The position numbers were made by a program, and so were the translations under genes. From Balanoglossus misakiensis (lineage: Eukaryota; Animalia; Hemichordata): 64,000 nucleotides of DNA. The stretch lies in assembly GCA_040954595.2 (NCBI GenBank), contig CM082591.2, positions 11,053,309 to 11,117,308 on the forward strand, written 5' to 3'. Shown one piece after another: positions 19,131 through 34,969 of the stretch; within the stretch, counting starts at the first letter, position 1; each line of letters opens with the position of its first letter. The notes beneath the pieces are model-generated. The model saw nothing but the letters and a program-made list of their open reading frames with translations, was not told the origin of the DNA and made no database searches.

Positions 19131-20656
19131 TAGTTTTCCAATTCTTAATTTTCAATTACTTACAAACACACAACACTTTGATAAATATTGTTTCATATGG
19201 ACTCCCTTCTTGTTGCCCACAAAATAAATGCTTTTTTCAAAGTTGATATTCAAATGAGATAAAAAAGTCCCTGTTGAGAGTGTGTTAAAATAGATAGTTA
19301 TATCCCATTATTATGATTAAACCTCTATCATCAGTTTTCTCCAGCATATTTCAGTATGGATGATGCAATCTGGTCTATTGATAATTTGATAATTCACTAT
19401 TCGAAGAAGGCAAAGAAACTGTAAAGTACAGAACCTATCATAAGAAAATTTTCTAAAAGTAGCCCCAAATTAGCTATCTTTCCTCTGAGTCACTTTTTGC
19501 CCAAGTCCTTGAGTGGTGTTTTTACCATAATAAATGTGAGAGTTTTGACAATAAGGTAAGTTTAAGGATGAGATCAATTCAGCTGGAACACTGAGAGCTA
19601 AAGAGGAGCAACTCACAGAAGCCATCAATTTCTTTATTGGGATGGAGCAGACATGGACACATTTTTGTTTCTGCTGTGTGAAAGTTAACGACTCTTTGTT
19701 GCTGTGACAAATCAATACAAGGTAAGAGTAATGTCCTCTTTCTGTTTATAGGGGAGGAGAGGATACATGCGTGAATTCAAAGACCAGTGCATCAGATGCA
19801 GGGGGAAATTCCTCAGACAAGATGATTTTATATTCGTGGACTTAAACCAACATTGTTTTATTTCATCATCATTTCAAGAAAAGAACTTCTCCCATGTCTT
19901 AGAATAGAGCATTGATAAATCCCTAAGTTATATGATCTGTATTCAAAATGTAATATTGTGATTTTTCTGTATGTAATTGTGTCAGACAGAGAGGAGAGGG
20001 AGAACAGGTTCAAATTAAATTGCAATGTGTATATTTTGGCATGGCAACACTTCTTCAAATTTGATAGCAAAAAAGGAAATTTACTAACAACAATAGTCCT
20101 AAATTATCACTGTGATTTGTTTAGCCTAGCCTGAAGGCTGTTGGATCCTATAGACAAAATAACCATTGCGCATAACTAAGCTGCACGTAAACTAACACGA
20201 AATGCACTGGATACAGCAGCCTTCAGGTCATTACCACTTAGCTTTTCAGCGCGTAAATAAACCCACTAATATAGCAGTTAATATAACTGAGCTAAATGGT
20301 ATACAAAAAGAGAATACAGCATAATTCCTGTATTGGTACAGATCTTCAACCAGTTACGTGAGGAAAGCAAACATGCCCAATAAAGAGCAAACCACCATTG
20401 CATATTATTAATGTTTGACTTTGATAAACTGTATTTGGCATATGCTTGACTTGCCTAAACCACCATTGTATATTGTTTGACTTGGCTCTCCCTCTCTTTA
20501 TACATAGACTAGATTTCTATTGTTACATTATTGTAATTGATTTAGGCATAATTTACTAGTATTGTGCATTTTGAAAGTACAATGTAGAAGTATTATAGGT
20601 TTATGATGGCCATGTTTTCGTGATTTATATTGAAGTATGAACTATATCATACACAG

Positions 20657-21222
20657 TATGGGGTGAGAACACCGCCAAAAATAGCTGATGTCTTTATTTG
20701 GTAGTTTTCTCATCATTATTATGCTATTATGTCATTATTTGGCCATTACCTTGGCCATTATTATGCCGTTATTTGGTTCTTTGGCCGTTATTATGTCATT
20801 TTTCAGTACTGATGTCTTTATTTGGAAGTTTTCTCATCATCATTATGCTATTATGTCATTATTTGGCCATTATTTGGTTCTTTGGTATTTATGTCGTGGT
20901 CTCGACATTACCTCGACCATTACCTCGGCCATTATTTGGTTCGCTCGACATTACCTCGGTCATTATTATGCCGTTATTTGGTTCTTTGGCCGTTATTATG
21001 TCATTTTTCAGTACTGATGTCTTTATTTGGAAGTTTTCTCATCATCATTATGCTATTATGTCATTATTTGGCCATTATTTGGTTCTTTGGTATTTATGTC
21101 GTGGTCTCGACATTACCTCGACCATTACCTCGGCCATTATTTGGTTCGCTCGACATTATCTGACCTACTTTATTATTTGAACTCTTGCCCGGTACCCAGA
21201 ATTCATTGCACAAAATGGCGAC
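20657..21222 (+). repeat. Left terminal inverted repeat (566 bp) with an internal 205-bp duplication and short iterons
   Basis: Reverse complement of 34366-34931, with identical 160/113/109-aa mirror ORFs. Internal period is 205 bp (20822 vs 21027). Built from ccattatttgg, cattacctcg and ttattatg motifs. Confidence 0.96.
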
Positions 21223-21229
21223 GGTATGA
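21211..21229 (+). promoter_or_regulatory. CAAAATGGCG (YY1/Kozak-like) motif and 4-codon uORF MATV* at the inner end of the left TIR
   Basis: caaaATGGCGACGGTATGA has its ATG at 21215, 93 nt upstream of the ligase ATG at 21308. Confidence 0.55.
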
Positions 21230-21307
21230 AAGTTTCGCAGGCCGTGGCCGACGACAGTCTTGGAAACAGCACGCGTGGTGGGTAAACAGTGAAGGCTGAA
21301 ATGAACT

Positions 21308-34100: not shown

Positions 34101-34373
34101 GGAACTCACTTTGTATGAACGATACGGCCAACAGACGCTTGGACCAATGTTCTGTGACTGATTATCAAGAAAATCTATCAAAGTTGTCATAGCAAGACTG
34201 AGTTGTGCAAACACGTTGTCTGGGACATCAGTATGGATGCATAATTGGACCAGTTCTTCTTCTTGTAAAACGATGTCGTCAAACACAGCTTCCAACTCAC
34301 TTGGTCTAGTTACTGACCCAAGTGCGGAAGCAATATCGTACAACCGTCTTGTTATTACTTGTACAGTCGCCAT
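31161..34373 (-). CDS. IS3EU-type DDE transposase/integrase-core protein, about 490 aa, 3 exons
   Basis: Exons 34373-33679, 32293-31738 and 31382-31161 total 1473 nt, with GT-AG introns and an in-frame join [14 protein letters not shown]-terminal GRPR plus HTH ([16 protein letters not shown]) and a second helical domain (LSDEELD...GMKRLHGLL). Catalytic core [46 protein letters not shown] gives DD36E. Confidence 0.92.
32689..33036. mobile_element. 348-bp Kolobok-like MITE with TTAA TSD in transposase intron 1
   Basis: TTAA|agggacaaagtctctctctcgctgccc...gggcagcgagagagagactttgtccct|TTAA, imperfectly palindromic over most of its length. A related end occurs at 9155-9174. Confidence 0.8.
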
Positions 34374-34931
34374 TTTGTGCAATGAATTCTGGGTACCGGG
34401 CAAGAGTTCAAATAATAAAGTAGGTCAGATAATGTCGAGCGAACCAAATAATGGCCGAGGTAATGGTCGAGGTAATGTCGAGACCACGACATAAATACCA
34501 AAGAACCAAATAATGGCCAAATAATGACATAATAGCATAATGATGATGAGAAAACTTCCAAATAAAGACATCAGTACTGAAAAATGACATAATAACGGCC
34601 AAAGAACCAAATAACGGCATAATAATGACCGAGGTAATGTCGAGCGAACCAAATAATGGCCGAGGTAATGGTCGAGGTAATGTCGAGACCACGACATAAA
34701 TACCAAAGAACCAAATAATGGCCAAATAATGACATAATAGCATAATGATGATGAGAAAACTTCCAAATAAAGACATCAGTACTGAAAAATGACATAATAA
34801 CGGCCAAAGAACCAAATAACGGCATAATAATGGCCAAGGTAATGGCCAAATAATGACATAATAGCATAATAATGATGAGAAAACTACCAAATAAAGACAT
34901 CAGCTATTTTTGGCGGTGTTCTCACCCCATA
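34366..34931 (-). repeat. Right terminal inverted repeat (566 bp), containing the transposase start codon
   Basis: Mirror of 20657-21222 (coordinates sum to 55588). ATG at 34373-34371 on the - strand. Confidence 0.96.
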
Positions 34932-34969
34932 ACACAGTTGGAGATATTGTCATATGTGATTACTGATTA

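What the first reader, a model, noticed from the sequence alone, without database searches (positions are those of the whole stretch)
20651..34937. Intact, recently inserted IS3EU-like transposon encoding its own HECT E3 ubiquitin ligase
Seen: a perfect 6-bp TSD, 566-bp TIRs with no differences I could find, and two stop-free spliced genes pointing at each other, a DD36E transposase and a HECT ligase that keeps the catalytic Cys and the -4 Phe. Known: IS3EU elements have TAY..RTA ends, 6-bp TSDs and a second ORF. I know of no functional characterisation of that second protein. Inference: this is a two-component transposase plus ubiquitin-ligase system. The ligase could counter host silencing, remodel target chromatin, or remove the transpososome after integration. 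Many stand-alone 'G2E3-like' annotations in animal genomes may be cargo of this kind.
Basis: partly seen in the sequence, partly recalled or inferred. Interest (0 to 1): 0.9.

Follow-up and report, generated by a model that had tools for sequence, protein, structure and literature searches.

The report
Mobile transposon carrying a ubiquitin ligase
A complete 14-kb jumping gene, missing from this spot in another individual, carries a gene for a HECT-type ubiquitin ligase facing its transposase gene; the pair recurs in many related elements, and the ligase likely helps the element finish its jumps.

Summary
Confirmed. 20657-34931 has TATGG..CCATA ends, 570-bp TIRs (first 566 identical) and an ACACAG target duplication. 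It encodes a 490-aa DD36E transposase and a convergent 779-aa ligase: predicted ubiquitin-like domain, C2HC finger, HECT with Cys746 and -4 Phe (14, 41, 54). Another individual shows the empty site and holds a 99.8% identical interior elsewhere (19, 96), so it moved recently. The ligase belongs to the element: 36 of 80 related transposase loci have a convergent ligase hit (25 of 37 with 2.5 kb or more downstream), five lie inside TIRs with perfect 6-bp duplications, and 34 of 34 C-lobes keep the Cys (49, 52, 57, 81). Saccoglossus has four near-identical copies, three named 'G2E3-like' (30). Both TIRs end at an ATG in CpG-rich DNA, likely twin promoters. Function is untested; I favour ubiquitin-driven clearance of the element's own transposase complex (about 0.45) over anti-silencing (0.3). 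This scan noted the same pairing in at least eight other windows (35). New variant of IS3EU/GingerRoot.

The parts
20651..20656 (.). left target-site duplication ACACAG
   Evidence: one copy only at the empty site in runs X1 and X2
20657..21226 (+). left TIR, 570 bp, with an internal 205-bp duplication and 41-43-bp subrepeats; CpG o/e 1.07; ends just past an ATG (21215) that here opens a 4-codon upstream ORF
21308..22027 (+). ligase exon 1 (aa 1-240): conserved N-terminal helix, E-H-x-R-L-F-type motif, predicted ubiquitin-like (beta-grasp) domain at about aa 112-225
22574..22707 (+). ligase exon 2: C-x2-C-x12-H-x3-C finger (aa 250-269), UBZ-like by pattern
   Evidence: zf_C2HC_14 E 1.1e-4, below cutoff; zf_UBZ E 0.089; recurs in linked ligases
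23184..23279 (+). ligase exon 3, low-complexity linker with a 21-bp duplication that the other individual's copy lacks (in frame)
24339..24431 (+). ligase exon 4, linker
24889..24987 (+). ligase exon 5, acidic linker
26010..26523 (+). ligase exon 6, HECT N-lobe (FIGESAVDDGGPRREF motif)
27234..27474 (+). ligase exon 7, HECT N-lobe
28345..28506 (+). ligase exon 8, start of HECT C-lobe
28672..28952 (+). ligase exon 9, HECT C-lobe with catalytic Cys746 (codon at 28848) and -4 Phe
31161..31382 (-). transposase exon 3, acidic C-terminal tail
31738..32293 (-). transposase exon 2, catalytic core with D282 and E319
32685..33040 (.). very high-copy MITE (TTAA-flanked, AGGG..CCCT ends) inside transposase intron 1; a passenger
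33679..34373 (-). transposase exon 1: helical N-terminus, helix-turn-helix, D225; the start codon lies inside the right TIR
34362..34931 (-). right TIR, 570 bp, holds the transposase start codon in the context CAAAATGGCGAC
34932..34937 (.). right target-site duplication ACACAG

Best explanation
This is an intact, recently moved IS3EU/GingerRoot-type DNA transposon whose second gene, a HECT ubiquitin ligase, is a long-standing part of the element and likely works on the element's own transposition cycle, most likely by ubiquitinating the transposase complex so that host machinery clears it after insertion. Shown: ends, duplication, both reading frames, the empty site, and the same convergent gene pair inside TIRs elsewhere. 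From known DDE chemistry: the helix-turn-helix transposase binds the TIR subrepeats, cuts the element out and joins it to a target cut with a 6-base stagger. Inferred: the two identical CpG-rich TIRs act as twin promoters, so both genes are switched on together, with the short upstream ORFs on the left arm holding the ligase below the transposase; the N-terminal helix, motif and ubiquitin-like domain would pick the substrate or recruit p97/proteasome; the C2HC finger would bind ubiquitin; the HECT domain would build chains; removal of the stable post-insertion complex would let the host repair the gaps, as ClpX does for MuA in phage Mu (recalled). Odds: ligase is a functional, selected part of the element 0.9; its main substrate is the element's own complex 0.45.
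For: Empty site: joint 20650 to 34932 skipping 14,281 bases (element plus one duplication) in X1 and X2; in X1 at depth 184.6, equal to the flank contigs, while the interior is present at depth 135-185 with 22 substitutions in 12,618 bases (0.17%) against about 2% in the listed flank contigs; another flank abuts the TIR end in X2. Linkage: 36 of 80 loci with a convergent ligase hit, 25 of 37 with at least 2.5 kb downstream, 6 of 80 with a hit in another arrangement, 0 hits in reversed-ORF controls; 21 contig-name prefixes. TATGG..CCATA ends enclose both genes in 7 loci, 5 of the 7 with a perfect 6-bp duplication. Cys in 34 of 34 C-lobes, aromatic residue near the end in 31 of 34. Eight between-family pairs: synonymous sites near saturation (pS 0.64-0.86), pN 0.20-0.42, omega 0.14-0.19 in the four pairs with finite dS. 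Ubiquitin-like domain, finger and HECT travel together: 9 of 11 loci with the N-domain have the same finger behind it. Partial co-divergence with the transposase: Mantel rho 0.23, p 0.02, n 26; nearest transposase among the top three by C-lobe in 12 of 26, 3.1 expected. CpG o/e about 1.0 in TIR and both first exons, 0.37-0.38 in inner exons, 0.28 in flank. In L001, the closest locus, both genes begin at an ATG at the inner edge of a shared inverted repeat. Other DNA transposons carry OTU and Ulp1 proteases, and a role of ubiquitin in transposition was proposed (PMC2836005, passages).
Against: Nothing here identifies a substrate or shows activity. The empty-site joint has only 25 letters on its short side (plus 7 that fit either side), comes from one sample, and in X2 its depth (855) is twice the interior's. 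12 of 37 loci with 2.5 kb or more downstream have no convergent hit, so transposases without this partner may exist. Co-divergence is weak: the window's nearest transposase (L001) ranks 19th by C-lobe, and kin or shared hosts can give such a correlation; within one assembly p was 0.076 (n 6). 13 of the 36 linked loci, and 6 of the 7 TIR-bounded ones, come from one assembly. The profiles were built from these same loci, which favours conserved, Cys-bearing hits and low omega. Two within-family pairs gave omega 0.64 and 1.25 (copies whose ligase lies in shifted frames), and the window's copy against the other individual's shows four amino-acid and two silent codon changes among the listed sites, too few to judge. 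No cognate Saccoglossus transposase turned up (best 58%). The ATG-in-TIR layout was not seen in the seven TIR-bounded loci.
Confidence: 0.45

Rival explanations
1. Anti-silencing: the ligase marks a host silencing factor (piRNA pathway, H3K9 or DNA methylation machinery, KRAB- or HUSH-like repressors) for degradation and keeps the element's promoters open.
For: Promoter regions at both ends keep their CpGs. Fungal IS3EU carry TET/JBP demethylases proposed to escape silencing (PMC12730594, abstract and passages). C-lobes diverge faster than transposases (mean identity 29% against 55%), as in host conflict. Viral E3 adaptors do this (recalled).
Against: A diffusible anti-host ligase would help all elements alike, which is hard to keep in one element over the age of animals (inference). 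The ligase partly follows its own transposase. CpG-rich promoters are what any germline-expressed gene shows.
Confidence: 0.3
2. Chromatin or repair helper: the ligase is recruited to the cut or target site through its C2HC finger and ubiquitinates histones or repair factors to open the target or steer gap repair.
For: Finger resembles UBZ-type fingers (zf_UBZ E 0.089, zf_C2HC_14 E 1.1e-4), which in RAD18-type proteins read ubiquitin at damage sites (recalled). The same idea was proposed for OTU and Ulp1 domains of Ginger1 (PMC2836005).
Against: Both Pfam scores are below cutoff. No DNA- or histone-reader domain was found in the ligase.
Confidence: 0.17
3. Passenger: a host HECT gene captured once and carried without benefit, or kept for the host's benefit.
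For: GingerRoot elements in clubmoss capture gene fragments (PMC6839031, passages). Some related loci lack the ligase hit.
Against: Those captures are varied fragments and go with loss of the transposase; here one whole gene sits in one position and orientation across families with saturated synonymous sites, with the Cys kept in 34 of 34. Saccoglossus holds several near-identical copies on 6.5-15-kb scaffolds.
Confidence: 0.08

Closest known systems
[quoted passage not shown]
   Same: TA..TA termini, here TATGG..CCATA; 6-bp duplication; integrase-type DDE transposase without HHCC finger, first Asp 100-300 residues in; relatives in corals, sponges and fish
   Different: carries a whole spliced HECT ligase gene; 570-bp TIRs that include the start codon (100-150 bp in clubmoss GingerRoot); neither paper contains the word HECT
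TET-bearing IS3EU families of rust fungi (PMC12730594; passages and Table S1 search seen)
   Same: TAYGG..CCRTA ends, 6-bp duplication, a gene for a protein-modifying enzyme (alpha-kinase) in opposite orientation to the transposase
   Different: the partner is a HECT ligase; no TET/JBP gene; animal host; no HECT in text or supplement
Ginger1 (OTU, Ulp1), Mutator (Ulp1), Helitron (OTU), Zisupton (F-box) elements with ubiquitin/SUMO-system domains (PMC2836005, PMC12062965; passages seen)
   Same: DNA transposons that bring ubiquitin-system parts
   Different: those are proteases or adaptors, mostly fused to the transposase; this is a separate gene for a predicted chain-building enzyme with its own catalytic Cys
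[quoted passage not shown]
   Same: N-lobe motif, C-lobe Cys, -4 Phe; family profile hits E6AP at E 3.8e-22; Saccoglossus homologs at 72% bear the G2E3-like name
   Different: N-terminus is a ubiquitin-like domain without Pfam family plus a C2HC finger, not the PHD/RING-like fingers of vertebrate G2E3 (recalled); multi-copy and transposon-borne

Membership tests
IS3EU/GingerRoot | TA..TA termini (TAYGG..CCRTA in fungal members) | tested here: met
   TATGGGG..CCCCATA; feature from PMC10045372 and PMC12730594
IS3EU/GingerRoot | 6-bp target-site duplication | tested here: met
   ACACAG on both sides; single copy at the empty site
IS3EU/GingerRoot | terminal inverted repeats | tested here: met
   570 bp, one mismatch
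IS3EU/GingerRoot | integrase-type DDE transposase, no N-terminal HHCC finger, first Asp 100-300 residues from the start | tested here: met
   D225, D282, E319; rva_4 and helix-turn-helix hits, no integrase zinc-finger hit
IS3EU/GingerRoot | placement in the IS3EU/GingerRoot clade in a tree with Repbase members | not tested
   no Repbase or GingerRoot reference proteins were obtained
HECT E3 ligases | bilobed HECT domain at the C-terminus | tested here: met
   Pfam HECT on the C-lobe; profile against E6AP covers both lobes; model of the Saccoglossus homolog P0124 (pLDDT 75) matches HECT structures end to end, best E 2.7e-8, though TM only 0.31-0.39 with different lobe orientation
HECT E3 ligases | catalytic Cys in the C-lobe and -4 Phe | tested here: met
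   Cys746 aligns with HTC of AREL1 and E6AP; FGNV*; 34 of 34 linked C-lobes keep Cys
HECT E3 ligases | E3~ubiquitin thioester and chain transfer | not testable with these tools
   needs a bench assay
vertebrate G2E3 | N-terminal PHD/RING-like fingers before the HECT domain (recalled) | tested here: not met
   no PHD or RING hit in the window's exons tested or in the Saccoglossus homologs; the N-terminus models as a beta-grasp domain
ubiquitin-like (beta-grasp) fold | mixed sheet over one helix, structural match to ubiquitin-like domains | tested here: met
   model pLDDT 93; Foldseek best E 7e-3 (SAP18, plexin RBD, RING1B C-terminal); VIA best Z 7.3, rmsd 2.5, 77 aligned (TBK1 ULD), nearly all 50 rows ubiquitin-like. 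Z is under 8, so the fold class is supported, no specific family
UBZ-type ubiquitin-binding zinc finger | C2HC finger that binds ubiquitin | tested here: inconclusive
   pattern present and conserved; Pfam scores below cutoff; binding untested

The most novel reading that the evidence does not exclude
Animal IS3EU elements are two-component machines in which ubiquitination by an element-encoded HECT ligase is a step of the transposition cycle, the eukaryotic counterpart of ClpX-driven transpososome disassembly; most multi-copy 'G2E3-like' genes in invertebrates and fish are these transposon ligases, including expansions read as adaptation (20 G2E3 copies in a hadal sea cucumber, PMC9700323), and the HECT domain of vertebrate G2E3, said to appear only after the chordate/echinoderm split (PMC2837046), was domesticated from them.
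Probability: 0.25. Interest if true: 0.85.

Novelty: new variant of a known kind. Interest (0 to 1): 0.62.

Why it matters
Whether and how the ubiquitin system takes part in eukaryotic transposition has been an open guess since OTU and Ulp1 domains were found in Ginger and Mutator transposases (PMC2836005). An intact, polymorphic element with both genes whole makes it directly testable: one Cys mutant in an excision and integration assay. It also defines an unclassified HECT family (1,231 representatives at 50% identity share its N-terminal region; no Pfam model) and warns that 'G2E3-like' gene expansions in animal genomes may be transposon copies.

Tried and rejected
No whole genome is held for this window, so copies could not be counted in the assembly. 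No RNA holder listed. An exon at 24540-24618 kept the frame but was rejected by homology. Splicing from the TIR's ATG into ligase exon 1 was considered by eye; the nearby acceptors give stops. Accession adjacency in Saccoglossus did not show linkage: the ligase accessions and the 58% transposase XP_006818681 are far apart. A search of earlier notes by sequence gave nothing. Atlas look-ups gave unnamed or HECT clusters in chordates, molluscs, cnidarians and sponges, leads only. Dropped before the co-divergence count: L023, L039, L047, L076 (shifted or distant C-lobes) and five near-identical transposases. Paper searches: IS3EU (62 papers, 40 listed), HECT+transposase+terminal inverted (12), GingerRoot (16), G2E3+transposon+expansion (51), DNA transposon+HECT domain+Repbase+encode (0 papers; 60), IS3EU+ubiquitin (2 unrelated; 72); none showed an IS3EU-HECT report in listing or passages. 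The 2019 Kojima review was not held; Repbase entries, Repbase Reports and the supplements of PMC10045372 and PMC6839031 were not seen and may already note the ligase.
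Full report
Observation. The element runs from 20657 to 34931 between two ACACAG copies, begins TATGGGG and ends CCCCATA; its arms are identical for 566 bases and match to 570 with one mismatch. Each arm holds a 205-bp duplication and 41-43-bp subrepeats. The flanks are repeat-rich DNA whose ORFs look like simple or tandem repeats. The minus-strand gene has three exons and gives 490 aa with D225, D282 and E319, a DD36E triad; Pfam rva_4 continues across intron 1 and exon 1 has helix-turn-helix hits. 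The plus-strand gene has nine exons and gives 779 aa with Cys746 and the ending FGNV*. All introns are GT-AG. The ligase model was corrected with a Saccoglossus kowalevskii homolog and then aligns at 72% over 642 columns with P0123 across all junctions. These are RefSeq models, so the splicing rests on homology.

Recent movement. One sample (runs X1 and X2, one study) holds the stretch. It differs from the window at many flank sites at full depth, so it is another individual or haplotype. A contig joins 20650 to 34932, skipping the element and one duplication, at depth 184.6 in X1, the depth of the flank contigs; the element's interior is present at depth 135-185, with 22 substitutions over 12,618 bases in eight contigs (0.17%), against six listed differences in about 300 bases of left flank. 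So the sample lacks the element here and carries about one diploid dose elsewhere. X2 shows another flank at the TIR end, and both runs show variant TIRs. Caveats: the short side of the joint is 25 letters, the tables are cut, and in X2 the joint's depth is twice the interior's. The copy in that sample lacks one 21-bp unit in ligase exon 3, in frame. Its listed coding differences in the ligase give four amino-acid and two silent changes, too few to test selection.

The ligase belongs to the element. A transposase alignment fetched the best 80 of 525 metagenome loci. Profiles of the ligase's N-domain and HECT lobes, built from the window's protein and these loci, hit downstream on the opposite strand in 36 of 80 loci, 25 of 37 with at least 2.5 kb downstream and 16 of 23 with 8 kb; 6 of 80 had hits in other arrangements; reversed ORFs gave none. 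The 36 span 21 contig-name prefixes, 13 of them one assembly. TATGG..CCATA ends enclose both genes in seven loci; L027, L029, L033, L034 and L037 have perfect 6-bp duplications, L014 a 5-bp one, L038 none; six of the seven are from that one assembly. The catalytic Cys stands in 34 of 34 C-lobes at about 29% mean identity. Eight between-family pairs have near-saturated synonymous sites and omega 0.14-0.19 where dS is finite; within-family pairs with shifted frames gave 0.64 and 1.25. Transposase and C-lobe distances correlate weakly (rho 0.23, p 0.02, 26 sequences after dropping four loci and five near-duplicates); the nearest transposase is in the top three by C-lobe in 12 of 26, 3.1 expected, but the window's own nearest ranks 19th. 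In Saccoglossus four RefSeq loci on 6.5-15-kb scaffolds encode this ligase, three named G2E3-like; their neighbours could not be seen. The closest N-terminal relatives are from Ptychodera and Saccoglossus, others from a sponge, a sea cucumber and a fish, so the host is probably a hemichordate or kin (inference).

Anatomy of the ligase. Residues 5-27 form a conserved helix and 67-72 a conserved E-H-x-R-L-F-type motif. Residues 112-225 have no Pfam family, 1,231 relatives among 50% representatives, and model at pLDDT 93 as a beta-grasp fold whose matches are ubiquitin-like domains (best Z 7.3). A C2HC finger follows, below Pfam cutoffs but present behind the N-domain in 9 of 11 loci. The HECT domain has both lobes.

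Expression layout. Each TIR ends just past CAAAATGGCGAC. On the right this ATG starts the transposase; on the left it opens a four-codon ORF, followed by a 19-codon one, before the ligase ATG at 21308. TIR and both first exons have CpG o/e near 1.0, inner exons 0.37-0.38, flank 0.28, the pattern of unmethylated promoters with methylated gene bodies (established for invertebrates; recalled). In L001 both genes start at the ATG at the inner edge of a shared inverted repeat; the seven TIR-bounded loci do not show this. The context resembles the TISU/YY1 start element (PMC2518114, abstract and passages); that is a resemblance only.

Mechanism. Cut-and-paste with a 6-base stagger follows from the family. 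For the ligase I favour action on the element's own complex (0.45): a benefit that stays with the element best explains retention in one slot across deeply diverged families, and the partial co-divergence, the shared promoter and the ubiquitin-like domain plus finger fit a ligase that hands a substrate to p97 or the proteasome. Anti-silencing (0.3) and chromatin or repair help (0.17) stay open; a passenger (0.08) is unlikely. None of these steps is shown.

Comparison with print. IS3EU/GingerRoot is defined by TA..TA ends and 6-bp duplications (PMC10045372); all sequence features tested are met, the tree with Repbase members was not run. Fungal IS3EU carry an alpha-kinase gene opposite the transposase (PMC12730594), so the slot holds a protein-modifying enzyme in two kingdoms. 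Ginger1, Mutator and Helitron elements carry OTU or Ulp1 proteases (PMC2836005) and Zisupton an F-box (PMC12062965). A survey of animal HECT ligases has no such family and dates G2E3 after the chordate/echinoderm split (PMC2837046, passages); a sea-cucumber genome paper reads 20 G2E3 copies as deep-sea adaptation (PMC9700323, passages), which I did not test. This scan's earlier notes describe the same pairing in at least eight other windows; they are unchecked leads, and my counts come from my own calls.

Verdict. Real, intact and recently mobile; the ligase is a selected part of the lineage; its function is inferred. New variant of a known kind. What this copy adds is an empty site in another individual, a modelled domain architecture and the twin-promoter layout. 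Interest 0.62.

Noticed in passing
window 1-7773: Near-perfect palindrome: arms of at least 3.4 kb at 99-100% around a 400-bp spacer (3869-4268), one 360-bp non-matching stretch, no long ORF. Foldback element or assembly artefact.
   Followed up: no
window 32685-33040: TTAA-flanked MITE with AGGG..CCCT ends (Kolobok-like by recall) in transposase intron 1; summed depth above 400,000 against about 185 for single-copy DNA; the other individual's contigs run into it from both sides, so the family seems to carry it.
   Followed up: partly
window 29690-29859: Hairpin with 77-nt arms (92%) between the two 3' ends; may be a small MITE or a shared terminator region.
   Followed up: no
window 27720-28095: Repeated piece with short inverted ends in ligase intron 7, raised depth in all three runs.
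   Followed up: no
window 21137-21278 (runs X1, X2): Variant TIR (21167, 21189) at higher depth than the window's type, and loose ends at 21226, 21268 and 21278: sibling families or derivatives share the ends.
   Followed up: partly
window 39871-64000: 132-bp satellite array of at least 24 kb with higher-order spacing and CpG o/e 0.89.
   Followed up: no
window 9886-19124 and 37009-37643: 34-bp, (TGA)n-rich, about 410-bp and 150-bp tandem arrays in the flanks.
   Followed up: no
L077:2665-4475 (-): A convergent AAA ATPase ORF (Pfam AAA, AAA_lid_6) stands where the ligase usually does; one locus only, element ends not seen. An ATPase there would suit a disassembly role.
   Followed up: partly
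L042:11490-16156 (-), L052:13547-18010 (-), L024:102-1037 (-): Two large ORFs (945 and 604 aa) without Pfam hit recur near these transposases, probably another unclassified mobile element.
   Followed up: partly
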